A stretch of DNA of 64,000 bases from Candidatus Uhrbacteria bacterium. GTDB taxonomy: Bacteria; Patescibacteriota; Patescibacteriia; JACRJV01. The stretch covers positions 9,959 to 73,958 of the forward strand of contig JACRJV010000019.1 of assembly GCA_016215325.1 (NCBI GenBank). The letters run 5' to 3'. Shown one piece after another: positions 277-62,882 of the stretch. The position numbers and the translations under genes were made by a program. Position 1 is the first letter of the stretch. Each line of letters begins with the position of its first letter. The notes under the pieces are model-generated. The model had not been told where the DNA came from. It searched no databases and worked only from the letters and a program-made list of their open reading frames with translations.

Positions 277-1524
277 TCAATGTATTCTGTCAACACCCAA
301 TACTAAATTCGGATTGACATCGAGTTTCTTCCACGGCGTGAATTGTTTTTTGAGTGCATGGAAGTATCCGGCAATCGCGATCATGACGGCGTTGTCGGTG
401 CAGAACGAAGGTATTGGTAATTGGTAATTAGTAATTGGTAATTCGCGAGCAACAGCCGCCGCGAGTTGCTCACGAAGTTGTTTGTTGGCGGCCACGCCAC
501 CGGCGAGAATGACTGTTTTAATCTTGTATTCTTTTGCCGCGCGTATTGTTTTTGCCACCAGTACATCAACGACAGCTTTTTGGAAACTGGCGCAGATATC
601 CGCAACAACAACAGGAGTTAGCTTGTAGCTTTTAGCTTGTAGCGTCGTCACCCTACCAGCTAATTTCCTAATTTCCAATTCTTTTACCTTGTAGAGCACC
701 GCCGTCTTAATCCCGGAAAAACTAAAATCATAATCATTGCTCTTGATCATCGGGGCGCTGAAAGGGAACACGGTCGGGTCGCCACTTTCTGCAAGACGCG
801 AGACCACCGGCCCTCCCGGATACTCTAACCCCAAAATCTTTGCCACTTTATCAAACGCTTCTCCCACCGCATCATCGCGCGTGGCTCCGATGATTTTATA
901 ACCCAACGGTTTTTTCATGAGCACAAGCTCTGTGTGACCGCCCGAGACGACGAGGGCCAGGGCGGGATAGGGTATGGGGGTTAGGGTATGGGGGTTAGGG
1001 TCGGTTTTCACGCCTAAACCCTGGACCCTGAACCCTATACCCTTTCGCTGCAGCCAGGCTGCAGCGATGTGTCCTTCCATGTGGTTGACCGCCACCAACG
1101 GAATCTTCCATGCCCACGCGAGGGTCCGCGCTGTTTCGACGCCGACCATCAACGAGGTGATCAGCCCTGGGCCATAGGTGACTGCAATGGCATCGATCGG
1201 GGGTTTTGTATTTAGTATTTTGTATTTAGTATTTGTTTCGGATTTCGGATTTCGAATTTCGGATTTTCGCCCTGCTGAGACGAGCGCCTTCTCCACTACC
1301 GGAATAATCTTCTCTACATGCTCCCGCGCTGCCACCTCCGGCACCACCCCACCGGTCTTCCGGTGTGTCGCAATCTGCGAATGCACGACATTGGAAAGAA
1401 TTTTCACGTCAATATTCCCCGACCAAAGGCTCCGTCGAGACGGGGCCTGCGTGGAGGGGCTCGAAAATTCGAGTACCGCCGCAGCCGTCTCATCGCAACT
1501 GGTTTCAATCCCAAGAATTCTCAT
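277..1524 (-). CDS. tsaD: tRNA N6-adenosine threonylcarbamoyltransferase TsaD (Kae1/Gcp), with four in-frame repeat insertions
   Basis: MRILGIETSCDETAAAV..., GGVVPEVAAREH, HMEGH, VVSGGH, AFDKVAKILGLEYPGGP and FCTDNAVMIA motifs. The track ORF starts earlier (1593); the conserved start MRIL is at 1524. The protein is about 75 aa longer than typical TsaD because of four low-complexity insertions. Confidence 0.9.
   Translation of the reverse strand: MRILGIETSCDETAAAVLEFSSPSTQAPSRRSLWSGNIDVKILSNVVHSQIATHRKTGGVVPEVAAREHVEKIIPVVEKALVSAGRKSEIRNPKSETNTKYKILNTKPPIDAIAVTYGPGLITSLMVGVETARTLAWAWKIPLVAVNHMEGHIAAAWLQRKGIGFRVQGLGVKTDPNPHTLTPIPYPALALVVSGGHTELVLMKKPLGYKIIGATRDDAVGEAFDKVAKILGLEYPGGPVVSRLAESGDPTVFPFSAPMIKSNDYDFSFSGIKTAVLYKVKELEIRKLAGRVTTLQAKSYKLTPVVVADICASFQKAVVDVLVAKTIRAAKEYKIKTVILAGGVAANKQLREQLAAAVARELPITNYQLPIPSFCTDNAVMIAIAGYFHALKKQFTPWKKLDVNPNLVLGVDRIH
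410..447. repeat. Tandem repeat GGTAATT(A/G)GTAATTGG inside tsaD (encodes ...LPITNYQLPIP...)
   Basis: The string ggtattggtaattggtaattagtaattggtaattcg is visible; it is an in-frame insertion relative to the conserved TsaD C-terminal FCTDN region. Confidence 0.6.
618..690. repeat. Tandem repeat AGCTTGTAGC / TAATTTCC inside tsaD (encodes ...LQAKSYKLTPVV...)
   Basis: gttagcttgtagcttttagcttgtagcg followed by taatttcctaatttccaatt. The coding frame is maintained. Confidence 0.55.
964..1043. repeat. Palindromic repeat (GGGTATGGGGGTTAGGGT x2 ... CTAAACCCTGGACCCTGAACCCTATACCC) inside tsaD
   Basis: Two GT-rich direct copies are followed by their approximate reverse complement. It translates in frame as GIGFRVQGLGVKTDPNPHTLTPIPYP, inserted between the HMEGH and VVSGGH motifs. 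Confidence 0.65.
1203..1268. repeat. Tandem repeat GTATTTAGTATTT / TTCGGATTTCGG inside tsaD
   Basis: gttttgtatttagtattttgtatttagtatttgtttcggatttcggatttcgaatttcggatttt. It translates in frame as ...SEIRNPKSETNTKYKILNTKPP... between conserved TsaD segments. Confidence 0.65.
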
Positions 1525-1528
1525 ACCA

Positions 1529-2347
1529 TTACCGTAAAAGAACATCTTTCTTCCTTTTGTTCGTAAAATCAACAACTGTTTCCCGCTGCTCATCTCCCAT
1601 CATCTCCCACATCACCTCAAAGATTGACTTGAAAATGTCGACCATGGCCGGGACCGCCACGACCACGGCTAACGAACTCAGGTGCGGGCTCACGATGAGA
1701 ATTTGATCCGGATAAATATCAATCGTGCTTTTAAAAGTATACTTGGCGGGGAGGTATCGTACATCGCGCAATAGTTTAGGATCGGCCGGATTGTCCGTAC
1801 GCGAATCAGCGGTGAGGAGCAACCGTGTTTTAATGTTTGTCCGCCCGCGCTCCACGCGAAACCGCTTGAAAAATGCCGGATCAATATCTTCCCAGCCATG
1901 CAACGAACCAATAATGCAGTATTTTTTATTCTTGTACCGCATCAGAAGACTGGTATAGAACGCTTCTAATTCTTCTTTTGTTTCGATGAACCGTAACCCC
2001 AACTGCTGGTCTTGTTTCCTTCCCAACGACTCAAGCGTTGGGATAATATTAGTAAACAACTCTAATTTTTTCTCAAAATACTGCGCCAACCGCTGCGGCT
2101 TTTCGGCGTAGTAATAGCGCTTGTTCTTACGAAAATATACCGAAACAAAACCCTTGTCTGATAAGGTCTTGAGGATAGCGTAAATTGTCGTGCGCTTCAA
2201 ACCAGCCTCTTTGGCAACCGTGCTGGCAAGCGACCCACCGATTTTAAGTAATGCTAAATAAACACTCACTTCCGGCTCTGAAAGGCCGAGGTTTTTGAGG
2301 ATTGCAATGTTTTCCATAGTGTCTAAATTGTACAACACTTTATTCAT
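1529..2347 (-). CDS. TrmB-family HTH transcriptional regulator
   Basis: N-terminal ...LKNLGLSEPEVSVYLALLKIGGSLASTVAKEAGLKRTTIYAILKTLSDKGFV (TrmB-type wHTH). Start probably at the internal MENIAIL (2317). Confidence 0.7.
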   Translation of the reverse strand: MNKVLYNLDTMENIAILKNLGLSEPEVSVYLALLKIGGSLASTVAKEAGLKRTTIYAILKTLSDKGFVSVYFRKNKRYYYAEKPQRLAQYFEKKLELFTNIIPTLESLGRKQDQQLGLRFIETKEELEAFYTSLLMRYKNKKYCIIGSLHGWEDIDPAFFKRFRVERGRTNIKTRLLLTADSRTDNPADPKLLRDVRYLPAKYTFKSTIDIYPDQILIVSPHLSSLAVVVAVPAMVDIFKSIFEVMWEMMGDEQRETVVDFTNKRKKDVLLR

Positions 2348-2351
2348 AATG

Positions 2352-2366
2352 TCAATATTATATTGA
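2352..2366. promoter_or_regulatory. Palindromic candidate operator TCAATATTATATTGA in the divergent trmB-like promoter region
   Basis: Perfect 7+1+7 inverted repeat. A near-identical TCAATATATATTGA lies upstream of the TrmB paralog at 42499. Confidence 0.4.
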
Positions 2367-2499
2367 TTCTGTTTGATATTTCACTATTTATCCGTCATCA
2401 ATTGTAGACTGATATTCTCAACTTTGCTATGCTCCCCTGTTCAGATGAACAACCGATTCAGCTGGACGGACAGGACTTTGACAGGAGGCTTACCCATCC

Positions 2500-8594: not shown

Positions 8595-10634
8595 ATGCCG
8601 TTTACTCTCGTTCCACCCTATCCCCCTTCTGGTGATCAACCCCGTGCGATCCAACAGCTCACAACTGGGGTCCGCTCTGGCGCCCATGATCAAGTATTGT
8701 TGGGCGTAACCGGATCCGGCAAAACCTTCACGATCGCCAATGTGATTCAATCCGTTCAAAAGCCGACATTGGTCATCGCTCACAACAAAACGTTGGCCGC
8801 ACAACTCACGCAAGAGTTCCGTACGTTCTTCCCCAACAATGCGGTGGAATACTTTGTCTCGTATTATGACTATTACCAACCAGAGGCCTACCTCCCATCC
8901 ACGGATACCTACATAGAAAAAGAGACGCAAATCAATGAGGAGATTGATCGCCTCCGCCATGCGGCCACCACCGCCATAATGACCCGCACCGACGTGATTG
9001 TCGTGGCCACGGTCTCCTGTATCTACAGTCTCGGCTCCCCAAATGAATACAAAAAAATGCTGATTGGGCTCGTGGTCGGCCAGCCGACTGAACGCCAAGC
9101 ATTGTTAGAACAATTGATTACGCTGCATTACACCCGCAACGATATTCTCAAACGCGGCTGCTTCCGGGCCAAAGGGGAATTATTCGAACTCATGCTGCCA
9201 GACAAAGAACAGATCATCCGCGTTGACTTGAGTGGCGGCGTGGTGCGCTCGATCGAGGTGTTTGATGCCGTGAGCCGCGCACAGCGCGAAAGCGTCCAAC
9301 AGCTGCTCGTGTTCCCGGCCAAGCATTTTGTGGTCGCCGAAGGAGTCAAGGAGGCGGCACTCCAGGCCATCGAACAAGAACTCAACCAACGCCTGGCTAC
9401 TCTCGACAAAGAGGGTAAGTTGTTGGAAGCCGAACGCCTCAAACGCCGCACGCGCTATGATCTGGCTATGATCCGAGAGATCGGTTATTGTAGTGGAATT
9501 GAAAATTACTCGCGCTATTTGTCTGCTCGGCCGCCTGGCAGTCCTCCGTACACACTCGTGGATTATTTCCCCAAAGATTTTTTGATGGTGATCGATGAGT
9601 CCCACGTGACGGTCCCTCAAATCGGCGGCATGTATGCCGGGGATCGCAGCCGCAAACAAACATTGGTCGAGCACGGGTTCCGCCTGCCCTCGGCGCTGGA
9701 CAACCGACCGCTCCAATTTAGCGAATTCGAAGAGCGCATGCCGCAGACAATTTACACCAGTGCCACACCGGGGAAGTATGAGCTTGGCAAGACGAGTCCC
9801 GCCGCAGCAGGATCCCGCACGCTGCGGGATAAGTCAAGCTCCGCCGATTCTTCATCTCTTCATCTCTTCATCTCTTCATCTCCCCTCATCATCGAGCAAA
9901 TCGTCCGCCCCACTGGCCTTGTAGACCCCGAAATTGTTCTCAAGCCCGCAGACAACCAAATCCCGGATCTTGAGAAAGAAATAGGGAAAGAAATAGAGAA
10001 TAAATGCCGGGTACTGGTGACCACGCTCACGAAAAAAATGGCAGAGGACTTGAGTGAGTATCTCCATGATCGCGGATACAAAACAAAGTATCTGCACAGC
10101 GATGTGGATACGATGGACCGAATCCGGGTGTTGGAAGACCTGCGCCGCGGCACCATCGACATCTTGATTGGTGTCAACCTGTTGCGGGAAGGGCTCGATC
10201 TCCCGGAGGTTTCGCTGGTGGCCATCTTGGATGCCGACAAAGAAGGGTTCTTGCGCAGCGACACGTCACTCATCCAAACCATGGGCCGTGCCGCCCGCAA
10301 CATCCGCGGCCGGGTGATCCTCTACGCCAATACGGTGACCGGCTCCATGAAGCGCGCCATTACCGAGACCAGCCGCCGCCGCAAAAAACAAGTCGAGTAT
10401 AACCTCGAGCATGGCATCACTCCCAAGTCCATCGAAAAGGCCATCCAATCCATTGTGGATTACGAACTCAAGCCGGAACTGCCGAGTGAATTTGTGGAGA
10501 TCGAAAAGTTCGAGGATGTCCCGGGGCTGATCAAAATAAAAATGAAAGAAGCCGCGCAGAGATTGGAGTTCGAACGGGCGGCTTTGATCAGAGATGAAGT
10601 AGTCCAATTAAAAAAACTCATCAGCACCCGATGA
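8595..10634 (+). CDS. uvrB: excinuclease ABC subunit B (UvrB) carrying a 33-aa in-frame repeat insertion
   Basis: Walker A GVTGSGKTFT, VIDESHVT, beta-hairpin region, helicase motif VI and the C-terminal UvrB-C domain (EAAQRLEFERAALIRDE). Confidence 0.95.
   Translation: MPFTLVPPYPPSGDQPRAIQQLTTGVRSGAHDQVLLGVTGSGKTFTIANVIQSVQKPTLVIAHNKTLAAQLTQEFRTFFPNNAVEYFVSYYDYYQPEAYLPSTDTYIEKETQINEEIDRLRHAATTAIMTRTDVIVVATVSCIYSLGSPNEYKKMLIGLVVGQPTERQALLEQLITLHYTRNDILKRGCFRAKGELFELMLPDKEQIIRVDLSGGVVRSIEVFDAVSRAQRESVQQLLVFPAKHFVVAEGVKEAALQAIEQELNQRLATLDKEGKLLEAERLKRRTRYDLAMIREIGYCSGIENYSRYLSARPPGSPPYTLVDYFPKDFLMVIDESHVTVPQIGGMYAGDRSRKQTLVEHGFRLPSALDNRPLQFSEFEERMPQTIYTSATPGKYELGKTSPAAAGSRTLRDKSSSADSSSLHLFISSSPLIIEQIVRPTGLVDPEIVLKPADNQIPDLEKEIGKEIENKCRVLVTTLTKKMAEDLSEYLHDRGYKTKYLHSDVDTMDRIRVLEDLRRGTIDILIGVNLLREGLDLPEVSLVAILDADKEGFLRSDTSLIQTMGRAARNIRGRVILYANTVTGSMKRAITETSRRRKKQVEYNLEHGITPKSIEKAIQSIVDYELKPELPSEFVEIEKFEDVPGLIKIKMKEAAQRLEFERAALIRDEVVQLKKLISTR
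9795..9893. repeat. Repeat element inserted in frame in uvrB (GTCCCGCCGCAGCAGGATCCCGCACGCTGCGGGA hairpin plus (TTCATCTC)x4)
   Basis: Translates as SPAAAGSRTLRDKSSSADSSSLHLFISSSPLII between the conserved TSATPGKYELGKT and EQIVRPTGLVDP. The same GTCCCGCCGCAGCGGGATCCCGC word recurs at 18575-18610. Confidence 0.6.
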
Positions 10635-12680: not shown

Positions 12681-12937
12681 AATTTTTGAATTCTTTTAGA
12701 CTCTTTGACAATTAAACGAAACACTTGTTCAACCCATCGTGGATCGAGATGAAGATGTAGAGAAAGCTTGCATCGATCCTCTCGCATCCGCAGTTCCCGT
12801 AAACGATCCGTTACTGCCAACCTCCCTTTCTTTTTTTCTTTGCCAATGGCCTCAGAGAACCGCAGTCGCTGTGCAAGAATTTTAATGATTGATCGATCTG
12901 TTGCGTCAATTTTTTGTCGGAGAGTTGTGATGTTCAT
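12677..12937 (-). CDS. chorismate mutase (AroQ class, monofunctional)
   Basis: 86 aa; LRQKIDATDRSIIKILAQRLRFSEAIGKEKK pattern. Overlaps neighbours by 4 nt. Confidence 0.7.
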   Translation of the reverse strand: MNITTLRQKIDATDRSIIKILAQRLRFSEAIGKEKKKGRLAVTDRLRELRMREDRCKLSLHLHLDPRWVEQVFRLIVKESKRIQKL

Positions 12938-13620: not shown

Positions 13621-13744
13621 AAAACTCGAAATCCGAATATCGAAATCCGAAAAAAATCTAAAATGTTTAAAATTTTTGATATTTGAATTTTACTATTGTC
13701 TCGAATTTCAAATTTCGTGCTTCGGATTTTTAATGCAGTCGACA
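13617..13744. repeat. Intercistronic palindromic repeat (CGAAATCCGAA ... TTCGGATTT family)
   Basis: cgaaatccgaatatcgaaatccgaa ... cgaatttcaaatttcgtgcttcggattttt. It is the reverse complement of the TTCGGATTTCGG word found inside tsaD. Confidence 0.6.
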
Positions 13745-14320: not shown

Positions 14321-14400
14321 AAGTCAATAATGATTCGCGGTATTCGGATAGTAATTCGCGGTATTCGCATTATGTTATTGGTTTTGTGCCTTATGTCGTA
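14321..14400. repeat. Intercistronic repeat (ATTCGCGGTATTCG x2 family)
   Basis: gattcgcggtattcggatagtaattcgcggtattcgcatta; related words occur at 34520-34550 and 58483-58500. Confidence 0.5.
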
Positions 14401-15460: not shown

Positions 15461-15477
15461 ACCACCGAGTAAATTAA

Positions 15478-15535
15478 GCAAGATAAGCGAGATAAGTAAA
15501 TTAAGCGAGACACGCAAGATAAGCTATTTTTACAA
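15478..15535. repeat. Intercistronic repeat (GTAAATTAAGC / AAGATAAGCGAGATAAG family)
   Basis: taaattaagcaagataagcgagataagtaaattaagcgagacacgcaagataagc; the same words flank the 4HB gene at 62400-62882. Confidence 0.55.
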
Positions 15536-17648: not shown

Positions 17649-17700
17649 ACAAATAATGCGAATAACCATTCGTCATTCTGGCTTGGCCAGAATCCGATCT
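17649..17700. repeat. Intercistronic hairpin repeat (CGTCATTCTG...CAGAATCCG family)
   Basis: aatgcgaataaccattcgtcattctggcttggccagaatccgatc; related words at 18551-18565 and 61141-61170. Confidence 0.45.
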
Positions 17701-18539
17701 GATCCTGCCTGCCCCGCCTTGGCGGTGGGTCTCGGCCAAGATGACAACACCTCGCGCCACTCTTGTGGATCAACGCCGATACCAGACCACAATCGGATCT
17801 GTTCAACCCCTTGCGCGATAAACATTTCAATTCCGGATATTGTTTGCGCGCCTGCTAACCGCGCTTGCTTGAGCAATGCCGTCTCTAACGGGTTATACAC
17901 GCAGTCCATAACCTTCTGATACTGCTCAAAATGATATCCGGGCAGCGGGGAGGCGCTGCTATCAGGATGCATGCCAATGGGCGTGGTGTTTACAATAATG
18001 TCCAAGGGCTGTTTGTAAACATCTTCGATAGTTTTAAGTACAGTACCGCCAAATTGTTGTGCGAGGATTTGTGCCTTTTGCGGTGTGCGGTTCCAATAGT
18101 ACTGCGCGGCTTTCTTTTTGGAAAGAGTTACGGCAACCGCTCGTGCTGCCCCTCCGGCACCGAGGATCAGTGTATTCTTCCCTGCGATGTCGATCCCCCG
18201 CAGGGCATGCTCAACGCCAATGACGTCGGTATTATATCCCCGCAACATCGAATTCTCCGAAATCACCGTATTGACCGCACCGACCTCGCGCGCTGAATCA
18301 TCCAGTCCATCAAGGTATGGAATAATCGATTCCTTATGTGGGATGGTTACGGCCGTAAGGCCGATGCCAAGCGTGCGAATTGCCTGGACCAGCGCCGAAA
18401 CATCAGGGTGTGGGAATGCCAGCATGATTGCGTCGATTCCAGCCGAAGCGTAGCTTGTGGTATGCAGCAATGGACTCATGCTATGGGCAAGGGGGTAGCC
18501 AATAACCGCATTGAGTTTTGTTTTGGTAGTAATATTCAT
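17673..18539 (-). CDS. aroE: shikimate dehydrogenase
   Basis: VIGYPLAHSMSPLLH, GYNTDVIG, GAGGAARAV motifs. Confidence 0.85.
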   Translation of the reverse strand: MNITTKTKLNAVIGYPLAHSMSPLLHTTSYASAGIDAIMLAFPHPDVSALVQAIRTLGIGLTAVTIPHKESIIPYLDGLDDSAREVGAVNTVISENSMLRGYNTDVIGVEHALRGIDIAGKNTLILGAGGAARAVAVTLSKKKAAQYYWNRTPQKAQILAQQFGGTVLKTIEDVYKQPLDIIVNTTPIGMHPDSSASPLPGYHFEQYQKVMDCVYNPLETALLKQARLAGAQTISGIEMFIAQGVEQIRLWSGIGVDPQEWREVLSSWPRPTAKAGQAGSDRILAKPE

Positions 18540-18660
18540 AATTTGAGCATCGTCATTCTGAGGCTAAAACCGAAGTCCCGCCGCAGCGGGATCCCGCCCG
18601 AGGCGGGAAATCCTCAACTACAAGGTCCTGCGCAAAACTCAGGATGACACAACGGACTCG
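18540..18660. repeat. Intercistronic composite palindromic repeat (CGTCATTCTGAGG...CTCAGGATGACA with inner GTCCCGCCGCAGCGGGATCCCGCCCGAGGCGGGAA hairpins)
   Basis: Read directly from sequence; it shares the GTCCCGCCGCAGCGGGATCCCGC word with the uvrB insertion. Confidence 0.6.
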
Positions 18661-21184: not shown

Positions 21185-24085
21185 ATGGAAAAAATCATCG
21201 TGCGTGGTGCCAAAGAACATAACCTCAAAAATGTGAACCTCGAAATCCCTCGGGATAAGCTTATCGTATTTACCGGGATCTCGGGATCGGGTAAATCCAC
21301 CCTCGCGTTTGATACCATCTTTGCCGAAGGCCAGCGCCGCTATTTAGAATCTCTTTCTTCGTATGCCCGCCAATTTTTAGGGCAGATGAAAAAACCGGAC
21401 GTCGAATCCATCGATGGACTCTCGCCCGCAATTTCGATCGACCAAAAAACCGCATCGCATAATCCGCGATCCACTGTCGGCACCGTCACCGAAATCTACG
21501 ACTATCTGCGATTGCTGTATTCCAAGATCGGCCTCCCGCATTGCCTGGATTGCGGTCGCGCGATCCAGCAACTCACCATTGATCAGATCGTGGAGTCAAT
21601 AATCGATGAGTTCAACGGGCAAGAGGTGATGATCTTTTCCCCGGTCGTGCGCGGGCGCAAAGGCGAATATCATACTCTGCTCAACGACTTCTATCTCAAA
21701 GGGTATGCCAAAGCGCGGGTTAATGGCGCCCTGGTGGCTCTGGGGGAGCGTATTGTGTTGGATCGCTATAAAACCCACACCATCGACATATTGATGGATG
21801 CGGTCATCGCGACCGTTGAGAACATGGGTCGATTGTTTGAGGCCGTCGAATTTGCCACCGGCAATGCCGAGGGAAATGTACTTGTCGCGAGTAAATCAAG
21901 CGGGTCAAGTAAATTAAGCTTGTCGCGAACGAAGAAAAAAAACTCTCTAGAACCTAGCGCCTATAACCTAGAACCTCAAACCGAACGCCTCTATAACCTC
22001 AAACTCGCGTGCCCCTATTGCAATTTGAGTTTTCCCGAAATTGCTCCACGCCTTTTCTCTTTCAACAGCCCCTACGGCGCTTGCCCGACGTGCACGGGGT
22101 TAGGAATAAAAAAAGAAATTGATCCAGAACTGATCATCCCTGACAAAACGAAAACGATCGAAGAAGGCGGAATCCTCCCAGATTCCTACAGCCAATTTAA
22201 TTATTATGGATCGATCTTGCGCTCACTGGCGGATCACTACCACCTCCCCAGCAACCGCCGCATCAAGGACCTCCCCAAAGAAACACTCAATGCCATCCTT
22301 TATGGCGCAGAAGATCCCATTCCTCTGCGTGTCAAATACTACATGAATGGACGGCCGCGCGTCTTCAAGACTCGCTTCCCAGGACTCATCCCATTGTTAG
22401 AGGAACGCTATCAAAAAACAGAATCTGACACGGTGCGATCGGATATCGAGGCGTATATGTCCAGCTCCGATTGTCCCACGTGCCACGGAGCGCGGCTCAA
22501 ACCCGAAGCATTAGCTGTAAAAGTCAGTACCCAGTCGATTGTTGATATCGCGCAACAATCCATCGCCAGCGCATATCAGTTTTTCCAAACGCTCCCCGCG
22601 ATACTCAATGCACGGCAAACACTCATCGCCGATCGCATCCTCAAAGAAATCACCAATCGGCTCAAATTCTTAGTGAATGTCGGCTTAGAATATCTCACCC
22701 TGAGTCGCACCGCCAATACCTTGGCCGGCGGCGAAGCACAACGCATTCGCCTCGCCAGCCAAGTGGGCAGCGCCCTCACCGGCGTGCTCTATGTACTGGA
22801 TGAGCCGTCGATTGGCCTCCATAGCCGAGATAACGCCAAACTGTTAGAGACCTTAAAACACCTGCGCGATATCGGCAACACTCTGATCGTGATCGAACAT
22901 GACGAAGAAACTATGCGAGAAGCCGACTGGCTCGTGGATATCGGGCCCCGCGCGGGCAAGCACGGCGGCACGATCATCGCCAGCGGCCCTCCCGAGCAGG
23001 TGATCAAGCACCCAACATCGTTGACCGCTCAATATTTGCGCGGAGAGCGCTCAATACCAGTGCCAGAGCAACGTCGAAGGCCACGCAAAAACTCTTTAAT
23101 CATTCGCGGGGCTCGCGAACATAACCTTAAAAACATTGCGGTCGAAATCCCGCTGGGGGTGCTTGTCTGTATTACCGGTGTATCAGGCTCGGGAAAATCC
23201 ACGCTCATAGAGGATATCCTCTATCCGGCGCTGGCGAAGAAACTCCATCATGCCAACACCCGGGCGGGACTCCATACAACCATCGAAGGAATCGAACACA
23301 TTGATAAGGTCATTGTCATCGATCAATCGCCCATCGGCCGCACACCGCGCTCGAACCCCGCCACCTATACGGGGATGTTTACGCCCATCCGAGAACTATT
23401 TGCCGCCACCAAGGGGGGGCGCATCCGAGGCTATGGCCCGGGGCGGTTCAGTTTTAATGTCCGCGGCGGACGGTGCGAAGCCTGCCAAGGGGACGGCGTC
23501 CAGAAAATCGAGATGCAATTTTTGCCTGATGTGTATATCCCCTGCGATGTCTGCGCCGGCAAACGCTATACCTCTGAAACACTGGCGATTACGTACAATG
23601 ATAAAAACATTGCAGACGTCTTAGCGATGACTGTTGAAGAAGGATATCTATTTTTTAAAGATATTCCCCAAATTGCCGACAAGCTAAACATCCTTAATGA
23701 TGTCGGCTTAGGGTATATTGAGTTGGGCCAGTCCGCCACCACGCTCTCCGGCGGCGAAGCGCAACGGATTAAGCTCGCCACCGAGCTGGCGCGCCGCGCC
23801 ACCGGCAGAACATTCTACATCCTCGATGAGCCGACCACGGGCTTGCACTTTGAAGATATCCATAAGCTCCTGTCGGTGCTCGAGCGCCTGGTGGATGCCG
23901 GCAATACCGTCTTAGTGATCGAGCATCAACTCGACGTGGTCAAAACCGCGGATTGGATTATTGATCTTGGCCCCGAAGGAGGAGACAAGGGTGGCAGTAT
24001 TGTAGCCCAAGGCACGCCCGAGCAGGTCGCCAAGATGAAACAAAGTTACACGGGACAGTTTTTAAAACCTCTTCTCAAGCAATAA
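21185..24085 (+). CDS. uvrA: excinuclease ABC subunit A (UvrA) carrying an in-frame repeat insertion
   Basis: Two ABC modules ([15 protein letters not shown]; [13 protein letters not shown]), LSGGEAQRI signature twice, and zinc-finger CxxC pairs. Confidence 0.95.
21890..21985. repeat. Repeat element inserted in frame in uvrA (GTAAATCAAGCGGGTCAAGTAAATTAAGC plus TAGAACCTAG/TATAACCT words)
   Basis: Translates [31 protein letters not shown] between the conserved ...NAEGNVLVA and [13 protein letters not shown]. It shares the GTAAATTAAGC word with 15478-15535 and the 4HB flanks. Confidence 0.55.
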
Positions 24086-32962: not shown

Positions 32963-33083
32963 AGGAAATTGGTTACTGGAAATTGGAGAATAGTAATGGA
33001 ACATGGAAATTAGTGTTTGAATACGTTTCCAATCTCCATACACCAATATCTATTACCATTTTCTATTTTCTAGCAACCAGTTT
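32963..33083. repeat. Intercistronic palindromic repeat (GGAAATTGG / TAATGG words and complement)
   Basis: ggaaattggttactggaaattggagaatagtaatggaacatggaaattag ... tttccaatctccatacaccaatatctattaccattttc. Confidence 0.5.
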
Positions 33084-35454
<2,371 letters not shown>

Positions 35455-36974: not shown

Positions 36975-37053
36975 AACGATAGAATTTAGAGTCCAGAATT
37001 TAGAATCTAGATTTTTGAACGGTCCCGTTCCTAACTTCTAGATTCGAGATTCT
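36975..37053. repeat. Intercistronic palindromic repeat (AGAATTTAGAATCTAGA ... TTCTAGATTCGAGATTCT)
   Basis: Visible inverted repeat between atpA and atpH. Confidence 0.5.
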
Positions 37054-38092: not shown

Positions 38093-38144
38093 TTAGGGTA
38101 TAGCGTTTAGTTCTAAACGCTGACCGCTAAACCCTAGACCCTTT
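38093..38144. repeat. Intercistronic palindromic repeat (TTAGGGTATAGCGTTTAG ... CTAAACCCTAGACCC)
   Basis: Shares GGGTAT/CTAAACCC words with the tsaD 964-1043 insertion. Confidence 0.5.
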
Positions 38145-39143: not shown

Positions 39144-39245
39144 ATTAACGGGAATTACGAATCATGAATAATGAATCATGGATTTTTTGTATCGTGCCCT
39201 GATTCCTTATTCCCAATTCCTGATTCCTGCGACATTTCCTTCGTA
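39144..39245. repeat. Repeat (GAATCATGAATAATGAATCATGG ... TGATTCCTTATTCCCAATTCCTGATTCC) overlapping the atpZ 3' end
   Basis: Tandem/inverted low-complexity words are visible; the atpZ-like C-terminus reads through part of it. Confidence 0.45.
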
Positions 39246-46758: not shown

Positions 46759-46793
46759 ATTAAAAGGCATGGAATACATCTATTCTCTTCAGT

Positions 46794-48235: not shown

Positions 48236-48261
48236 ACAGTACAAATCGATCCGAATACAAA

Positions 48262-48290
48262 AACGCTCTGTGCTATCAGAGCATTTTTGT
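48262..48290. terminator. rho-independent terminator between convergent htrA and trxB
   Basis: gctctgtgctatcagagc hairpin followed by atttttg. Confidence 0.55.
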
Positions 48291-48312
48291 CATATTCGGT
48301 TTTATTCGGGCG

Positions 48313-49254: not shown

Positions 49255-49343
49255 AAAACTAGTATATGGTATGAGGTATAGGGTATAAAGTATACGCCGA
49301 AATCATTAGGAAACGTCGCGCGGTATACCTTATACTTAATACC
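49255..49343. repeat. Intercistronic palindromic repeat (GTATAGGGTATAAAGTATAC ... GTATACCTTATACTTAATACCTTATACC)
   Basis: Inverted repeat of GGTAT/ATACC-rich words between trxB and the glutaredoxin-like gene. Confidence 0.5.
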
Positions 49344-55436: not shown

Positions 55437-55455
55437 AGATTACAGAAAACGCCAG

Positions 55456-56427
55456 TCATCGCACATCTGTGCGGTCCAAAATTTTGAATCCGTCCATAAC
55501 AGCTTCACAGAGAAAATCTTCTAATTGGCTCTGGTCTTCTTTCGTTTGGGCCTTGTAAAGATAGGTGTAATAAAGTTGTTTTTGTTCCTGACGGATAATC
55601 GCGGGGGCAAAATTTGCATTAAGCAATATTGCATTCATGAGCAAACGGCCAACACGGCCATTCCCATCAGAAAAAGGATGAATTTGCTCAAATGTGCTGT
55701 GTACACCGGCAGACAACGCGATGATATCTTTTGTTTTTTTATTAATGCGAACCATAACTTCCGGTATTAATTTCGGGACACTGACATAATTCGCAGTCGG
55801 CAAATTTACGCCGGTGATTCTGACGGCGTGATTGCGATAGACTCCAGCATCCGGGCGGACTCCATTCATGAGAATGCTATGGAGCTTTAATACTAAATCC
55901 TCATCAATTTTTTCTTCTTTGGCGATATAGTCAAACAAGTAGTTAAGAGCTGTTTGATGATTTTTTGCTTCCAGTTGCTCGGTCAGACTTTTGTGAGGTA
56001 AGGCTACATTGTCAAAAAGAATCGCCGCAGTATCCGGTTCGGTCAATGTGCTCCCTTCGATGCTATTGCTATGGTATGTGAGTTTTAAGATAAATTGATC
56101 ACGAATATCAGGGTTGGCTATAATGTTATTTACAACATTTTTGTGCTCTCTCATTTTTTTTCGTAAGACGTTTTTTTTGGCGGTGAGCTGATCATCGGGG
56201 ATTATTTTCTGCCCCGTCACTTCCAAAAAGAGTTCATCAATGGATGCTTGCATCTTTGGCCTCGGGATGGACTTGCCAGTCCACCAGCTGTTAAAGGCAA
56301 CAAAAGATACGCCAAACTTTTCAGCTAACTTGGTTTGGGTTAAGCCGAGCATTTTTTGAATTATTTCTAATTTTTGTCGTATAGTCATAGGATTGTGTTT
56401 ATTCGTTAATCGACCATTTATTGACAT
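55456..56427 (-). CDS. Fic-family protein with N-terminal XRE-type HTH
   Basis: HTH (TIRQKLEIIQKMLGLTQTKLAEKFGVS) and Fic motif HPFSDGNGRVGRLL. The track ORF starts at a TTG (56454); ATG starts are at 56427 and 56388. Confidence 0.8.
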   Translation of the reverse strand: MSINGRLTNKHNPMTIRQKLEIIQKMLGLTQTKLAEKFGVSFVAFNSWWTGKSIPRPKMQASIDELFLEVTGQKIIPDDQLTAKKNVLRKKMREHKNVVNNIIANPDIRDQFILKLTYHSNSIEGSTLTEPDTAAILFDNVALPHKSLTEQLEAKNHQTALNYLFDYIAKEEKIDEDLVLKLHSILMNGVRPDAGVYRNHAVRITGVNLPTANYVSVPKLIPEVMVRINKKTKDIIALSAGVHSTFEQIHPFSDGNGRVGRLLMNAILLNANFAPAIIRQEQKQLYYTYLYKAQTKEDQSQLEDFLCEAVMDGFKILDRTDVR

Positions 56428-56434
56428 ATTATCA

Positions 56435-56448
56435 AACTTTATAAAGTT
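56435..56448. promoter_or_regulatory. Perfect palindrome AACTTTATAAAGTT at the 5' end of the fic gene (candidate autoregulatory operator)
   Basis: Visible; a second half-site, TATAAAGTTTGA, lies 20 bp upstream. Confidence 0.35.
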
Positions 56449-56695
56449 AGTCAATATATCAAGATTCTATAAAGTTTGAAATCTTGTCAAGTATACTTTA
56501 CAAGTAGTATAAAATGTAGGAAAACAAGAGCAATATCAGCTTGAAATGCATGATTCTCTTGTTACCAATCTATACTTGAAGATGTGAACGTATTGAAAAA
56601 CAGGGGGGAAACGCAATGGACGGCCCTAGTGGCCGCCCATGAAATCGCATCGCGATCTTCCCAAAATTCTGTTCAAATCGACGTTTGTTTGATTC

Positions 56696-58380: not shown

Positions 58381-58482
58381 AGTTGCTGCAATATCCGCAG
58401 ACTGGTGGCGGTCGCCCCTCTTTCCTATCCTACGTTCAATTTTGCCGAGTGTCAAAATACGCTCCAATTTGCTCGGAGCGTA

Positions 58483-58545
58483 TTTTTATTCGTAGTATTC
58501 GCATACCCGACCGGCGGTTGCCGATGTCGGGTATTCGTGTTATAA
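58483..58545. repeat. Intergenic repeat (TTATTCGTAGTATTCGCATA ... GGGTATTCGTG; ATTCGCGGTATTCGCATTA family) with inner hairpin CCCGACCGGCGGTTGCCGATGTCGGG
   Basis: Visible between the PLD-like gene and hup. Confidence 0.4.
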
Positions 58546-61122: not shown

Positions 61123-61265
61123 TGCGAGCCGCAGAGAAGCGATCCAGATCGGATTCTGGATAAGACCAGAATGACGAGAAAAAGAAAAGGCTCCGGGCGA
61201 TGCATGCGTGGATACAGAGCGCCCGGAGACCTTGAAGTTGGTTTGAATCGTTGGCCGTGCGAGGC

Positions 61266-61905: not shown

Positions 61906-62298
61906 CTAGCGTTTCAGCAGTCGGTATGGGTGTCTCACCGCGGGGGTGAGACCTTCGGCCTTAACGGCCGAGATGATGTCCTTCTCCAGCCACCCCACTG
62001 CGGCCCACCCATCAGGATAAATCACAGCACCGGTGCCAGTGGGGTTGATCTGTTCCCCGAACGGGCTTGACTCCCATCGCACGAGCCATTCCCCATCCCT
62101 GCCCTTAATCTGGAAACGCCCCGTGCAAAAGGTGATTGGTATCATCACCTTTTCACTCGTCCAAACGCTTACGCCCTCCTCCTCGCCGATGGCCAAGGTA
62201 TGCTGATAGTCGAGGTTGGCCAATGTTGGGTAGCAGACCCCCTGGCCTCCGACTCTGTCAAACCTCAAAACCGATCCCTCGGATGGCTTCACAAACAT
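61906..62298 (-). CDS. hypothetical protein on GC-rich DNA
   Basis: 130-aa ORF with coherent composition and no motif recognised. Confidence 0.35.
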   Translation of the reverse strand: MFVKPSEGSVLRFDRVGGQGVCYPTLANLDYQHTLAIGEEEGVSVWTSEKVMIPITFCTGRFQIKGRDGEWLVRWESSPFGEQINPTGTGAVIYPDGWAAVGWLEKDIISAVKAEGLTPAVRHPYRLLKR

Positions 62299-62399
62299 GA
62301 TTGAATCCTCCAATTGTCAGCGTTCGTGCCTTGACCAGAACGCGGTAGCATAGTATACTCTAAATGAGTGGTCAATATCGCCACGTGGTGATTAGTAGC

Positions 62400-62459
62400 A
62401 CCTTATTACGAGCAAGATAAGCGAGATAAGCAAGACAAGTAAATTAAGCACGACATGCT
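62400..62459. repeat. Left inverted repeat flanking the 4HB gene (AAGATAAGCGAGATAAGCAAGACAAGTAAATTAAGC)
   Basis: Its reverse complement is found at 62836-62882. Confidence 0.6.
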
Positions 62460-62834
62460 ATGGGAAACATTCATTCATTCCGCGACCTTTTAGTCTGGCA
62501 AAAAGCACACCAGTTGGTGCTGGAAATATATCGTCTTACCAAGAAATTCCCTTCGAACGAAATGTTTGGCTTAGTCTCTCAGATCCGTAGGGCCACAGTC
62601 TCCGTTGCTTCCAACATCGTAGAAGGCTTTAACCGCTCCAGTGTTCAAGACAGTCTGCATTTCTACACCATGGCCCATGCGTCACTCGAGGAAGTAAAAT
62701 ATCAGCTGCTCGTCGCCCGTGACTTGCAGTACATTACTCAACAAGAATACAATCATACACTTTGTTTAGGAGAAGAAGTGAGTAAATTATTGCGATCCTG
62801 GATCAATAGCCAGAAAGAGAATACGAAGGCGTAA
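62460..62834 (+). CDS. four-helix-bundle protein (23S rRNA intervening-sequence protein / Avd family)
   Basis: FRDLLVWQKAHQLVLEIYRLTKKFP...EMFGLVSQIRRATVSVASNIVEGF...HFYTMAHASLEEVKYQLLVARDL is the classic family pattern. Confidence 0.85.
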   Translation: MGNIHSFRDLLVWQKAHQLVLEIYRLTKKFPSNEMFGLVSQIRRATVSVASNIVEGFNRSSVQDSLHFYTMAHASLEEVKYQLLVARDLQYITQQEYNHTLCLGEEVSKLLRSWINSQKENTKA

Positions 62835-62835
62835 C

Positions 62836-62882
62836 GGCTTAATTTACTTATCTTGCTTATCTCGCTTAATTTACTTCGTATG
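62836..62882. repeat. Right inverted repeat flanking the 4HB gene (GCTTAATTTACTTATCTTGCTTATCTCGCTTAATTTAC)
   Basis: Near-perfect reverse complement of 62405-62452. Confidence 0.6.

What the first reader, a model, noticed from the sequence alone, without database searches (positions are those of the whole stretch)
410..62882. Several interrelated families of short palindromic low-complexity repeat elements (REP/RPE-like) are dispersed across the window
At least 25 loci of 30-120 bp share a small vocabulary of words, usually one purine/GT-rich arm followed by its approximate reverse complement. The word families are: (A) GTAAATTAAGC / AAGATAAGCGAGATAAG at 15478, 21890, 62400, 62836; (B) CGTCATTCTG...CAGAATG and GTCCCGCCGCAGCGGGATCCCGC at 17649, 18540, 9795, 61141; (C) ATTCGCGGTATTCGCATTA at 14321, 34470, 58483; (D) TTCGGATTTCGG / CGAAATCCGAA at 1203, 13617, 48240; (E) GGGTAT...CTAAACCC at 964, 38093, 49255; (F) AGAATTTAGAATCTAGA at 36975; (G) GGTAATTGG / GGAAATTGG at 410, 32963. 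They are neither CRISPR nor classic IS elements. They are likely hairpin-forming when transcribed.
Basis: seen in the sequence. Interest (0 to 1): 0.7.

Follow-up and report, generated by a model that had tools for sequence, protein, structure and literature searches.

The report
IVS-like short-period repeat hairpins in CPR genome
A candidate-phylum (Uhrbacteria) genome carries many small elements made of degenerate 7-9-base tandem repeats, often paired as hairpins; they lie between genes and in frame inside essential genes, and they have the same build as the stems of ribosomal-RNA 'intervening sequences', which carry a small four-helix-bundle gene.

Summary
All named loci exist. Arrays of period 7 (10 in the window against 0.07 in shuffles), period 14 (8 against 0) and period 9 (5 against 0.13) are far above chance. 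About 23 loci are involved, roughly 3% of the window.

The building block is a degenerate tandem array of about 30-45 nt with 7-, 8- or 9-nt units, not a fixed REP sequence. About half the loci are hairpins: a purine-rich array, a loop, then the complementary pyrimidine-rich array.

They fill intercistronic gaps of the shikimate and ATP-synthase operons and flank a terminator. Seven lie in frame inside TsaD (four), UvrB, UvrA and AtpG.

Reader family A (9-nt units) forms the two inverted arms around a PF05635 '23S rRNA intervening-sequence protein' (Avd-like) ORF at 62460-62834. All 10 homologous ORFs examined in other CPR contigs are flanked the same way, above all 71 control genes. Cyanobacterial and Azospirillum homologues also carry heptamer arrays. 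The published Coxiella 23S IVS has heptamer repeats beside the same kind of ORF.

Best reading: IVS-like selfish palindromic elements and their ORF-less derivatives, which behave like Rickettsia RPEs when inside genes. They are not REP/RAYT, CRISPR or IS elements. How they spread is unknown.

The parts
405..450 (-). E1: single heptamer array (AATTACC x5 on the coding strand) in frame in TsaD, peptide LPITNYQLPIPS. It is not a length insertion relative to homologues.
   Evidence: fold z about 0.
610..685 (-). E2: arrays TAGCTTG (616-647) and CTAATTTC (660-680) in frame in TsaD. The segment is absent from relatives P0005, P0007 and P0008.
   Evidence: z -2.7.
955..1050 (-). E3: hairpin of heptamer arrays (GGGTATA/GGGTTNA ... 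CCCTAAC/CCCCATA) in frame in the TsaD loop after HMEGHI. The orthologous copy is present in L081.
   Evidence: (dG -39, z -3.5).
1196..1272 (-). E4: two adjacent non-complementary heptamer arrays (TTTAGTA x4.4 and TTTCGGA x4.4 on the + strand) in frame in the first TsaD loop.
9793..9895 (+). E5: GC-rich hairpin (GTCCCGCCGCAGCAGGATCCCGC...) followed by an 8-nt array (TCTTCATC x4.2), in frame in UvrB. It is a 31-aa insertion (aa 398-428) where solved UvrB has about 2 residues.
13621..13744 (-). E6: hairpin of CGAAATCCGAA / TTCGGATTT arrays in the pheA-tyrA intercistronic gap.
   Evidence: (z -2.0).
14321..14374 (-). E7: 9-nt array ATTCGCGGT/ATTCGCATT (reader family C) in the aroC-pheA gap, directly upstream of the pheA ATG.
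15461..15526 (-). E8: family-A 9-nt array (GTAAATTAA / GCAAGATAA / GCGAGATAA) spanning the aroB stop codon and the aroB-aroC gap.
17649..17750 (-). E9: GC-rich composite hairpin (...GGATTCTGGCCAAGCCAGAATGACG...) that forms the last ~25 codons of the aroE ORF and the gap before the DAHP-synthase ATG at 17648.
18540..18638 (-). E10: GC-rich multi-hairpin element (CGTCATTCTGAGG...GTCCCGCCGCAGCGGGATCCCGC...) in the aroQ-aroE gap.
21885..21995 (+). E11: family-A array (AGTAAATCAAGCGGGTCAAGTAAATTAAGC) followed by a CTAGAAC/CTATAAC heptamer array, in frame in UvrA. It is a 31-aa segment (aa 235-265) where solved UvrA has 5 residues.
32963..33083 (-). E12: 121-nt hairpin of GGAAATTGG-type arrays in the atpD-atpC gap. 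In Uhrbacteria locus L209 the same gap holds an IVP cassette.
   Evidence: (dG -34, z -4.6).
34464..34560 (-). E13: hairpin of ATGCGAAT / ATTCGCA arrays (family C) in the atpG-atpD gap.
   Evidence: z -2.6.
34820..34862 (-). E14: 8/16-nt array (TCTTCACC-type on the + strand) in frame in AtpG, peptide [11 protein letters not shown]. It shares 13-mers with the UvrB array.
36975..37053 (-). E15: hairpin of TAGAATT/TAGAATC heptamer arrays in the atpH-atpA gap.
   Evidence: (z -2.0).
38093..38144 (-). E16: hairpin (GGGTCTAGGGTTTAGCG...CTAAACGCTATACCC) in the atpE-atpF gap, ending at the atpF ATG.
   Evidence: (z -3.3).
39144..39240 (-). E17: hairpin of GAATCAT and CCTGATT heptamer arrays directly upstream of atpB.
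   Evidence: z -2.6.
48236..48312 (.). E18: bidirectional terminator-like core hairpin (AAAAACGCTCTG...CAGAGCATTTTT) extended by ATCCGAATAC / TATTCGG arms, between convergent htrA and trxB.
   Evidence: (z -5.6).
49255..49343 (-). E19: hairpin of GGTATAN / TTATACC heptamer arrays in the grx-trxB gap. The same vocabulary occurs at a non-orthologous site in L083.
   Evidence: (z -4.3).
58468..58545 (-). E20: family-C arrays (ATTCGTAGT ATTCGCATA) flanking a GC-rich core hairpin, upstream of the PLD gene.
   Evidence: (z -3.6).
61123..61200 (-). E21: GC-rich hairpin element sharing GATTCTGG...CCAGAATGACGA with E9 and with L081.
   Evidence: z -2.5.
62395..62459 (+). E22a: left (purine-rich) family-A arm of the IVP cassette (TACGAGCAAGATAAGCGAGATAAGCAAGACAAGTAAATTAAGC).
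   Evidence: pairs with E22b, score 30, 38 of 44 matched.
62460..62834 (+). ORF in the loop of the family-A hairpin: 124-aa four-helix-bundle protein (PF05635 23S_rRNA_IVP, bAvd-like, TIGR02436).
   Evidence: E 2e-37; PDB 2gsc and 2rld, 5 chains each.
62835..62880 (+). E22b: right (pyrimidine-rich) family-A arm (GCTTAATTTACTTATCTTGCTTATCTCGCTTAATTTACTTCGTA). It overlaps the possible TTG start of the downstream TrmB-family gene.

Best explanation
The window comes from a Candidatus Uhrbacteria (Patescibacteria/CPR) genome that carries a population of small selfish or neutral elements.

What the element is (shown):
- The building block is a degenerate tandem array, usually 4-6 copies (about 30-45 nt), of a 7-, 8- or 9-nt AT-rich unit.
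- In about half of the loci a purine-rich array is followed, after a loop, by the complementary pyrimidine-rich array, which gives a 20-40-bp stem. The loop runs from a few nt to more than 100 nt and sometimes holds a GC-rich or terminator-like core hairpin.
- This is the architecture of bacterial 23S-rRNA intervening sequences (IVS): terminal inverted repeats that contain short direct repeats, with or without an S23p/IVP four-helix-bundle ORF in the loop.
- One complete cassette of this type, arms plus ORF, lies at 62395-62880.
- Copies survive where they are tolerated: intercistronic gaps of operons, terminator flanks, and variable surface loops of proteins, where they stay in frame and stop-free.
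- The arrays turn over by gain, loss or replacement of whole units.

What is inferred:
- The other loci are ORF-less hairpins or solo arms of the same or sister families.
- The in-frame copies are translated as low-complexity peptide loops, as Rickettsia RPEs are.
- When transcribed, the long stems are double-stranded RNA substrates for RNase III, as IVS stems are. Intercistronic copies could therefore cut or stabilise segments of polycistronic mRNA.
- The elements spread between sites by an unknown copying mechanism, possibly involving the pentameric IVP protein.
For: Non-randomness:
- (see observation check).

Anatomy and folding:
- About half the loci fold as strong hairpins.
- Across the loci pooled (window, the GTDB loci L001-L080, and L081 and L083), 41 of 182 arrays have a reverse-complement partner within 130 nt, against 2 in controls.
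- The 5' arm is purine-rich in 18 of 21 pairs and the 3' arm pyrimidine-rich in 15 of 16.

In-frame copies in conserved genes:
- TsaD.
- UvrB: aa 398-428 align to about 2 residues of solved UvrB.
- UvrA: aa 235-265 align to 5 residues.
- AtpG.

Intercistronic placement in the aro and atp operons:
-.

Link to IVS and IVP:
- ORF 62460-62834 is PF05635/bAvd/TIGR02436. It lies between inverted family-A arms, score 30.
- All 10 IVP ORFs in 9 CPR contexts have inverted array flanks scoring 12-30. The 71 control genes have a median of 7 and a maximum of 11.
- 15 of 18 IVP ORFs, including cyanobacterial and Azospirillum plasmid copies, have a period 7-9 array within 90 nt, and 7 have one on both sides. 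Among control genes the figures are 27 of 70 and 2 of 70.
- In L224 the IVP flanks are period-7 and period-8 arrays whose units resemble the window's E1 (GTAATTG) and E2 (TAGCTTG) types.
- In the Coxiella 23S IVS, a 28-bp terminal inverted-repeat stem is cut by RNase III. The S23p ORF sits in the loop and is preceded by tandem heptamers GACAGAT whose number differs between strains (PMC4990558).

ORF-less family-A hairpins:
- At least 23 distinct hairpin copies occur in metagenome contigs, with sharp ends and unrelated flanks.
- A subgroup (L150, L151, L105, L185, L186) has the same ends as the window cassette but a 15-nt loop.

Dispersal signal:
- Arrays more than 300 nt apart in one genome share the identical unit 9 times more often than arrays from different genomes (4.5% against 0.5%).

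Unit turnover:
- Window and L081 differ at the orthologous hairpin by the same C/T change in both 14-nt repeats and by replacement of a unit, with no change in length.

Site turnover:
- The first TsaD loop holds three unrelated elements in three related genomes.
Against: - Only one of about 23 loci carries an IVP ORF. No IVP gene lies near the 173 arrays of the window and the 80 TsaD loci, or near the other family-A copies. The link for arrays outside family A therefore rests on shared architecture and on resemblance of their units to IVP flanks elsewhere.
- About three quarters of arrays have no complementary partner.
- No target-site duplication was seen at the sharp ends. No strain-level presence/absence pair was available, because the only duplicate contigs were identical. 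Mobility is therefore inferred, not shown.
- Array E1 occupies a TsaD segment of normal length. The same site is period-7 with different units in the relatives L081 and L083, and more distant relatives (L006, L003, L030) show a 7-aa periodic peptide there. This fits in-situ slippage better than insertion.
- RNA folds are no better on the sense strand than on the antisense strand, so nothing points to selection on RNA specifically.
- An RNase III-cleavable stem inside a coding region (E3) would be costly. Either it is not cleaved, or the RNase III inference does not hold for all copies.
Confidence: 0.55

Rival explanations
1. The loci are purely local simple-sequence repeats: 'long simple sequence repeats' with a heptanucleotide preference. 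Replication slippage and template switching generate them in place at any tolerant site. There is no mobility and no link to IVS elements.
For: - Heptanucleotide repeats are reported as the commonest 5-11-nt class in prokaryotes and are attributed to polymerase slippage (Mrazek 2007, as summarised in PMC4679880; PMC4692102 abstract).
- E1 is not an insertion, and the same TsaD site is periodic with different units in several lineages.
- Unit-level turnover occurs without length change.
- There are 118 distinct units among 182 arrays, forming a continuum.
- No target-site duplication was seen.
Against: - Exact words of 13-19 nt are shared between distant loci in both orientations.
- Unit sharing is 9-fold higher within a genome than between genomes.
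- Family-A hairpins have identical ends and unrelated flanks in many contigs.
- IVP ORFs are systematically flanked by arrays.
- Arrays stay short (5th-95th percentile 28-45 nt) and degenerate, unlike slippage-driven microsatellites.
Confidence: 0.2
2. The loci are functional cis-elements kept by selection: RNase III processing sites, mRNA stabilisers or attenuating terminators between cistrons, or binding sites for repeat-reading proteins such as the pentameric IVP or the abundant TrmB-family regulators. They are not selfish DNA.
For: - Nearly every operon-internal gap longer than about 20 nt in the aro and atp operons holds one.
- Arrays extend bidirectional terminator hairpins.
- The orientation, purine-rich arm first, is that of an A-tract / stem / T-tract terminator.
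- TAACTGA heptamer sets just upstream of start codons in Beggiatoaceae were proposed to be translational regulators (PMC4679880).
- The TsaD hairpin E3 is retained between genomes whose TsaD proteins are 73-79% identical.
Against: - The same arrays occur inside coding loops of unrelated housekeeping proteins, where such functions are implausible.
- Units differ from locus to locus.
- 30 of 66 CPR loci have none.
- The element at a given site is replaced by unrelated ones in relatives.
Confidence: 0.15
3. The loci are scars of double-strand-break repair. A telomerase-like or primase-polymerase activity adds the same short repeat to both 3' ends, and joining then gives [X]-junction-[reverse complement of X].
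For: - This would explain the inverted arms and the strong bias for a purine/GT-rich 5' arm, the heterogeneous loops, and insertion anywhere, including inside genes.
- An AEP primase-helicase gene lies in the window.
Against: - No precedent is known to me.
- Most arrays are solo.
- It does not explain why IVP ORFs sit in the loops.
- The AEP gene matches a TOTE conflict-system domain and sits next to a Fic gene.
Confidence: 0.05
4. The loci are classical REP/BIME elements mobilised by a RAYT (IS200-like tyrosine transposase) encoded elsewhere in the genome.
For: They are short imperfect palindromes in extragenic positions. The GC-rich class (E9, E10, E21 and part of E5) looks REP-like.
Against: - The genome has no single conserved palindrome.
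- No Y1 transposase is found in the 64 kb (Pfam).
- Copies occur inside genes.
- The arrays are tandem repeats, not REP sequences.
Confidence: 0.04
5. The loci are assembly or chimera artefacts.
For: Low-complexity sequence can be misassembled. Many IVP homologues lie on very short contigs.
Against: - Reading frames run through seven copies without stops.
- An orthologous copy exists in an independent assembly.
- The same features occur in SAGs and MAGs from many studies and in finished cyanobacterial plasmids.
Confidence: 0.01

Closest known systems
23S rRNA intervening sequences (IVS) carrying an S23p / PF05635 ORF (Coxiella, Leptospira, Xanthomonas-type)
   Same: - Terminal inverted repeats form a long stem.
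- A four-helix-bundle ORF of the same Pfam family sits in the loop.
- Short tandem direct repeats lie in the arm next to the ORF: heptamers GACAGAT in Coxiella, with strain-variable number.
- Both ORF-containing and ORF-less forms exist.
   Different: - Here the cassette and its ORF-less relatives are not in rRNA. They lie between protein genes and inside them.
- The arms of the window cassette use 9-nt units.
- RNase III excision is not shown here.
- The window's own 23S has expansions, but they are not made of arrays.
Rickettsia palindromic elements (RPE)
   Same: Both are small palindromic repeats inserted in frame into conserved protein-coding genes, apparently tolerated in loops, and also present in intergenic DNA.
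   Different: - No sequence relation was tested or is expected.
- RPEs are families of 100-150 nt with a conserved consensus. Here each copy is a different permutation of 7-9-nt units.
- The phylum is different.
Heptanucleotide 'long simple sequence repeats' (Mrazek et al. 2007), cyanobacterial STRR heptamers, and TAACTGA repeats of Beggiatoaceae (PMC4679880)
   Same: - The tandem period is 7.
- There are 2-6 copies per set.
- Sets are frequently placed just upstream of start codons that lack Shine-Dalgarno sites.
- Phylogenetic distribution is sporadic.
   Different: - Here there are many different degenerate units per genome rather than one.
- Arrays are frequently paired as inverted arms.
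- Copies lie in frame in genes even though the period is not a multiple of 3.
- Arrays are associated with IVP ORFs.
REP/BIME and MITEs
   Same: They are short, dispersed, hairpin-forming and non-coding. Family-A ORF-less copies have sharp ends and unrelated flanks, as MITEs do.
   Different: - There is no RAYT or transposase in the window.
- No target-site duplication was seen.
- The arms are internally repetitive.
- The 'autonomous' partner would encode an Avd-like protein, not a known transposase.
Borg tandem repeats that create disordered protein regions (PMC9879509)
   Same: Nucleotide-level repeats arise inside genes and add low-complexity peptide segments.
   Different: Borg repeats are perfect direct repeats, with unit lengths that are multiples of 3 inside genes. 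Here the units are 7-9 nt, degenerate and often inverted.

Membership tests
23S rRNA IVS / S23p cassette | Terminal inverted repeats able to form a long stem | tested here: met
   The arms 62395-62459 and 62835-62880 align as inverted repeats with 38 of 44 positions matched, score 30. Control genes reach at most 11.
23S rRNA IVS / S23p cassette | ORF of the S23p / PF05635 four-helix-bundle family in the loop | tested here: met
   PF05635 E 2.1e-37, bAvd 9.6e-12. TIGR02436. PDB 2gsc and 2rld. Met for one locus only; the other loci have no ORF.
23S rRNA IVS / S23p cassette | Inserted in a 23S rRNA helix (9, 25 or 45) | tested here: not met
   The cassette lies 15.6 kb from the 23S gene (43650-46759), between protein genes. 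The 23S expansions near model positions 280 and 312 are not arrays.
23S rRNA IVS / S23p cassette | Excision of the stem by RNase III | not testable with these tools
   This needs transcript-end mapping or an in vitro cleavage assay. It has been shown for Coxiella (PMC4990558).
REP/BIME (RAYT-associated) | One conserved 20-40-nt imperfect palindrome repeated through the genome | tested here: not met
   Units differ at nearly every locus. Only short words are shared.
REP/BIME (RAYT-associated) | Cognate RAYT (Y1 transposase) gene | tested here: inconclusive
   None was found among about 70 ORFs of the window scanned against Pfam. The rest of the genome was not available.
REP/BIME (RAYT-associated) | Extragenic location | tested here: not met
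   Seven copies lie in frame inside TsaD, UvrB, UvrA and AtpG.
Rickettsia palindromic elements | In-frame insertion in conserved protein genes without disrupting them | tested here: met
   UvrB has a 31-aa extra segment and UvrA a 31-aa segment relative to solved structures. The TsaD loops are shown.
Rickettsia palindromic elements | Sequence membership in an RPE family consensus (Rickettsia lineage) | not tested
   No RPE consensus was available in the tools. The organism is a CPR bacterium, so the claim is 'works like', not 'is a member of'.
Heptanucleotide long simple sequence repeats | Tandem direct repeats of a 5-11-nt unit, longer than chance allows | tested here: met
   Period 7: 10 against 0.07 expected. 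Period 9: 5 against 0.13.
Heptanucleotide long simple sequence repeats | Copy-number polymorphism between strains (slippage) | tested here: inconclusive
   No strain pairs were available, because L081/L082 and L083/L084 are identical. Unit replacement is seen between genomes whose TsaD proteins are 73-79% identical. Strain variation is documented for the Coxiella IVS heptamers.
MITE | Terminal inverted repeats with sharp ends, multiple copies, unrelated flanks | tested here: met
   Family-A hairpins in at least 23 distinct metagenome copies.
MITE | Target-site duplication and a cognate transposase | tested here: not met
   No duplication is visible at the aligned ends. No transposase is found in the window.
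CRISPR array | Direct repeats of 23-47 nt separated by unique spacers of similar size | tested here: not met
   Units are 7-9 nt and contiguous. Arrays are 30-45 nt long.

The most novel reading that the evidence does not exclude
S23p/IVP (Avd-like, pentameric four-helix-bundle) genes are the autonomous core of a cross-phylum class of hairpin elements whose arms are arrays of about five 7-9-nt units. The class would occur in CPR bacteria, cyanobacteria and proteobacteria, and possibly Firmicutes. ORF-less derivatives of these cassettes would then be the common origin of three things so far treated separately:
- rRNA intervening sequences;
- the unexplained heptamer repeats (STRR, TAACTGA-like) of cyanobacteria and other bacteria;
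- the low-complexity in-frame insertions that lengthen CPR housekeeping proteins.

The pentamer would read one repeat unit per subunit and take part in propagating or processing the element.
Probability: 0.2. Interest if true: 0.85.

Novelty: new variant of a known kind. Interest (0 to 1): 0.66.

Why it matters
Three phenomena have been described separately and left without a mechanism: sporadic heptanucleotide repeats in bacteria, 23S-rRNA intervening sequences with their enigmatic S23p ORF, and RPE-like in-frame selfish DNA.

Here they meet in one genome:
- The same repeat vocabulary forms the arms around an IVS-type ORF.
- It fills operon spacers.
- It lengthens loops of TsaD, UvrA, UvrB and AtpG.

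If the link holds, three things follow:
- The large PF05635 'four helix bundle' family, which has no known function outside DGR Avd, gets a testable role.
- Part of the protein-length inflation and assembly fragmentation seen in CPR genomes is explained.
- Gene callers and aligners can be warned that these segments are nucleotide-level repeats, not conserved protein sequence.

Tried and rejected
- **Cis link between IVP genes and arrays in general.** tblastn of the window IVP against the window, the 80 TsaD loci (1.2 Mb) and 120 metagenome loci (0.72 Mb) found only the window's own copy and one distant hit 2 kb from the pattern. Arrays are usually not next to an IVP gene. The association holds only in the other direction: IVP genes are next to arrays.
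- **Strain-level presence/absence.** The duplicate contigs L081/L082 and L083/L084 are 100% identical. The window's own protein P0001 is not on record in the contig index.
- **UvrB homologue search to date the insertion.** The search was flooded by partial UvrB fragments from many phyla and returned no close relatives.
- **Rfam.** There is no family for any element; only 23S, 5S and two tRNAs were found.
- **RNA-specific selection.** Sense and antisense folds are equally stable.
- **'Five conserved plus two variable positions' per heptamer.** Mismatches are only moderately concentrated, with 0.59 of them in the best adjacent column pair against 0.51 in the null. This is not strong enough to argue for a protein footprint.
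- **A small conserved vocabulary shared by all CPR.** Rejected: there are 118 distinct units among 182 arrays, forming a continuum.
- **CRISPR, TIGR arrays, IS elements and RAYT.** None fits the anatomy or the gene content.
- **Literature.** I found no description of such elements in CPR/Patescibacteria, nor of stand-alone PF05635 cassettes with array arms. The library is incomplete, so this does not prove novelty.

Full report
**1.

- Tandem Repeats Finder reports many short arrays of period 7, 14, 8 and 9, typically 2-5 copies and 20-55 nt long.
- With a fixed criterion, period-7 arrays number 10 in the window against 0.07 in dinucleotide-preserving shuffles. Period 14 gives 8 against 0 and period 9 gives 5 against 0.13. 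The remaining periods tested (4-15) give 0-2 loci.
- A looser scan gives 26 loci against 0-6 in shuffles.
- I count about 23 distinct loci totalling about 1.9 kb, roughly 3% of the window.

- Family A is confirmed strongly.
- Families B and C are confirmed moderately. B is really two GC-rich hairpin motifs.
- D, E and G are related only by shorter words, and F is a single locus.

**2. What the unit is**

The common denominator is not a palindrome. It is a degenerate tandem array of a 7-, 8- or 9-nt unit, AT-rich, with a median length of 36 nt and a 5th-95th percentile range of 28-45 nt.

About half the window loci fold as strong hairpins: a purine-rich array, a loop, and the complementary array, with z from -2 to -5.9. 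The others are solo arrays or adjacent non-complementary arrays with no structure.

Sense and antisense strands fold equally well, so nothing singles out RNA as the level of selection.

Across the loci pooled (window, the GTDB loci L001-L080, and L081 and L083):
- 41 of 182 arrays have a reverse-complement partner within 130 nt, against 2 in controls.
- The 5' arm is purine-rich in 18 of 21 pairs.
- Some loops contain a GC-rich or terminator-like core hairpin. An example is the window element at 48236-48312, between convergent genes.

**3. Where the elements sit**

The TsaD homologues place the organism in Patescibacteria, with the best genome hit at 48% identity. NCBI names the source Candidatus Uhrbacteria.

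Pfam scans of about 70 ORFs give the gene map:
- a shikimate/aromatic operon at 11.5-21 kb;
- an F-type ATP synthase operon at 32.5-39.1 kb;
- uvrA, uvrB and tsaD;
- a 23S-5S rRNA unit;
- defence-like genes;
- no transposase, RAYT or reverse transcriptase.

Elements occupy the intercistronic gaps pheA-tyrA, aroC-pheA, aroB-aroC, aroQ-aroE, atpD-atpC, atpG-atpD, atpH-atpA and atpE-atpF, the region upstream of atpB, and the grx-trxB gap. They often end exactly at the start codon. Genes in this window generally lack Shine-Dalgarno sequences.

**4. Copies inside genes**

The ORF at 277-1524 is TsaD and contains four elements in frame.
- Alignment with 22 homologues shows that two of them lie in loop insertions absent from non-CPR TsaD. 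Alignment with closer relatives shows that a third is absent from some of those relatives.
- UvrB has a 31-aa segment (aa 398-428, nt about 9786-9879) where solved UvrB structures have about 2 residues.
- UvrA has 31 aa (aa 235-265) where solved UvrA has 5.
- AtpG carries an array in a variable region.
- Two further elements overlap the 3' ends of aroB and aroE.

This is the behaviour that made Rickettsia RPEs notable.

**5. Dynamics**

I aligned the TsaD DNA of the window with two relatives: L081 (P0002, 73-79% identical) and L083 (P0008, 64-71% identical).
- The first loop holds three unrelated elements in the three genomes: heptamer arrays, a CGTCAT...ATGACG GC-rich hairpin, and a GTAAGAC hairpin.
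- The second loop holds the same GGGTATA hairpin in the window and L081. The two differ by the same C/T change in both copies of a 14-nt repeat and by replacement of one unit, with length unchanged. L083 has three different arrays there.
- The C-terminal site is period-7 in all three genomes with different units, and it is not a length insertion. This last point fits in-situ slippage better than insertion, and I leave it unexplained.

The arrays are patchy among genomes:
- 36 of 66 CPR loci have them, up to 15 in 21 kb, and 30 have none.
- Two Firmicutes MAG loci also have them.

Arrays more than 300 nt apart in one genome share an identical unit 9 times more often than arrays from different genomes.

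**6. The link to intervening sequences**

ORF 62460-62834 is a PF05635 '23S rRNA intervening sequence protein' / bAvd-like / TIGR02436 four-helix-bundle protein. It is related to the pentameric PDB entries 2gsc and 2rld.

A metagenome scan for a 17-nt family-A word returned many contigs.
- At least 23 distinct copies are hairpins with sharp ends and unrelated flanks.
- One subgroup has the same ends as the window cassette (ACGAGCAAGATAAG ... GCTCGTAT) but only a 15-nt loop. This is an ORF-less version.

I then fetched nine IVP homologues (56-74% identical to the window protein, plus one more distant paralogue) in other genomic contexts.
- One of them lies between atpD and atpC of another Uhrbacteria genome. 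In the window that same gap holds hairpin E12.
- All 10 ORFs have inverted array flanks scoring 12-30. The 71 control genes have a median of 7 and a maximum of 11.
- In L224 the flanks are period-7 and period-8 arrays whose units resemble the window's E1 and E2 types.

A tblastn of plasmids found homologues almost only in heterocystous cyanobacteria, plus Azospirillum.
- Seven of the eight I examined have arrays of period 7-8, mostly heptamers, beside the ORF.
- Overall, 15 of 18 IVP ORFs have a period 7-9 array within 90 nt, against 27 of 70 control genes. Seven have arrays on both sides, against 2 of 70 controls.

The literature gives independent support (PMC4990558).
- The Coxiella 23S IVS is a 428-nt selfish element with a 28-bp terminal inverted-repeat stem cut by RNase III.
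- It has an S23p ORF in the loop and three tandem heptamers (GACAGAT) just upstream of the ORF, whose number varies between strains.

**7. Interpretation**

The best-supported reading is that the window carries IVS-like palindromic elements. There is one complete cassette, and many ORF-less hairpins or solo arms belonging to the same or sister families. They are tolerated at permissive sites and are remodelled by unit slippage.
- Shown: non-randomness, anatomy, placement, the in-frame copies, the association of IVP ORFs with array arms, and the ORF-less copies with sharp ends.
- Inferred: mobility, RNase III processing of the stems, translation of the in-frame copies, and any role of the IVP pentamer.

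Rivals are in-situ slippage alone, selected cis-regulatory function, break-repair scars, REP/RAYT, and artefact. They are weighed in the report sections. The first two are not exclusive of the main reading.

**8. Comparison and novelty**

The elements work like IVSs in architecture and ORF family, and like RPEs in their in-frame insertion. They share the period of the heptanucleotide repeats known from Mrazek's survey, from cyanobacterial STRRs and from the Beggiatoaceae TAACTGA sets.

They are not members of REP/BIME, CRISPR or IS families. They fail the defining location of IVSs, which is rRNA.

I found no paper describing such elements in CPR, nor stand-alone PF05635 cassettes with array arms. 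The library is partial. I therefore rate this a new variant of a known kind, of fairly high interest because it ties three unexplained phenomena together and makes the PF05635 family testable.

Noticed in passing
window 53847-56454 (- strand): A fusion protein of an AEP primase-polymerase domain (PF22548, TOTE conflict system) with a ResIII/DEAD helicase lies next to a Fic/DOC protein. RmuC, HU, a PLD-like nuclease and AbiEii follow at 57.3-60.9 kb. This looks like a defence or conflict island.
   Followed up: partly
window 43650-46759: The 23S rRNA is 3110 nt against a 2925-nt model. It has extra segments of about 57 and 86 nt near model positions 280 and 312 (domain I). They are not made of short-period arrays. 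5S follows at 46799-46918 and no 16S lies upstream in the window. Inverted 13-mers at about 43.6 and 46.8 kb probably form the processing stem.
   Followed up: partly
window, 40 nt upstream of about 47 start codons: Almost no gene has a Shine-Dalgarno motif. Starts are typically preceded by ...TT or ...AT directly before ATG. This holds whether or not a repeat element is present.
   Followed up: partly
window 1529-2347(-), 27014-27769(+), 42499-43245(+), 62853-63689(+): Four paralogous TrmB-family HTH proteins of 250-280 aa occur in 64 kb. Two or more also lie next to TsaD in the relatives L081 and L083. Their targets are unknown. One begins inside the right arm of the IVP cassette.
   Followed up: no
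window 11514-21039 and 32510-39143: A complete shikimate/aromatic amino-acid operon and a complete F-type ATP synthase operon are present. As far as I know, this is more metabolism than is usual for Patescibacteria.
   Followed up: no
L232 (Picosynechococcus sp. PCC 7003 plasmid, NZ_CP016476.1 126170-127287): A four-helix-bundle (IVP) gene with GGAGATAA-type array flanks is wedged between cas10/cmr2 and cmr3 of a type III-B CRISPR operon.
   Followed up: partly
L056 6176-6344 and 9784-9955; L068 1056-1230 and 4303-4771: Two Firmicutes MAG loci (Bacillota, Acutalibacteraceae) carry heptamer-array hairpins. The CAGAATC/CAGAAGT units of L056 resemble those flanking IVP genes on Nostoc and Trichormus plasmids.
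   Followed up: partly
L081 9040-10269 (TsaD of relative P0002): GC-rich elements bounded by CGTCAT...ATGACG are inserted in frame in two TsaD loops and translate to peptides such as HPEFISGSQ and RHPGRDQDPDSGQARMT. The motif GATTCTGG(N6-7)CCAGAATGACGA is shared with window loci 17.7 kb and 61.1 kb.
   Followed up: partly
one search hit list (IVP homologues P0121-P0240): Most close homologues of the IVP protein are known only from contigs of 0.6-2 kb. This is as expected if the gene or its repeat arms break metagenome assemblies.
   Followed up: no
L234 (Azospirillum lipoferum 4B plasmid AZO_p2, 13992-15142): An unannotated IVP-like ORF is flanked by long complementary GGACAGA/GGACGGA heptamer arms (score 23.5). 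The units resemble the Coxiella IVS heptamer GACAGAT. It may lie within an rRNA gene, which the plasmid gene table does not list.
   Followed up: no
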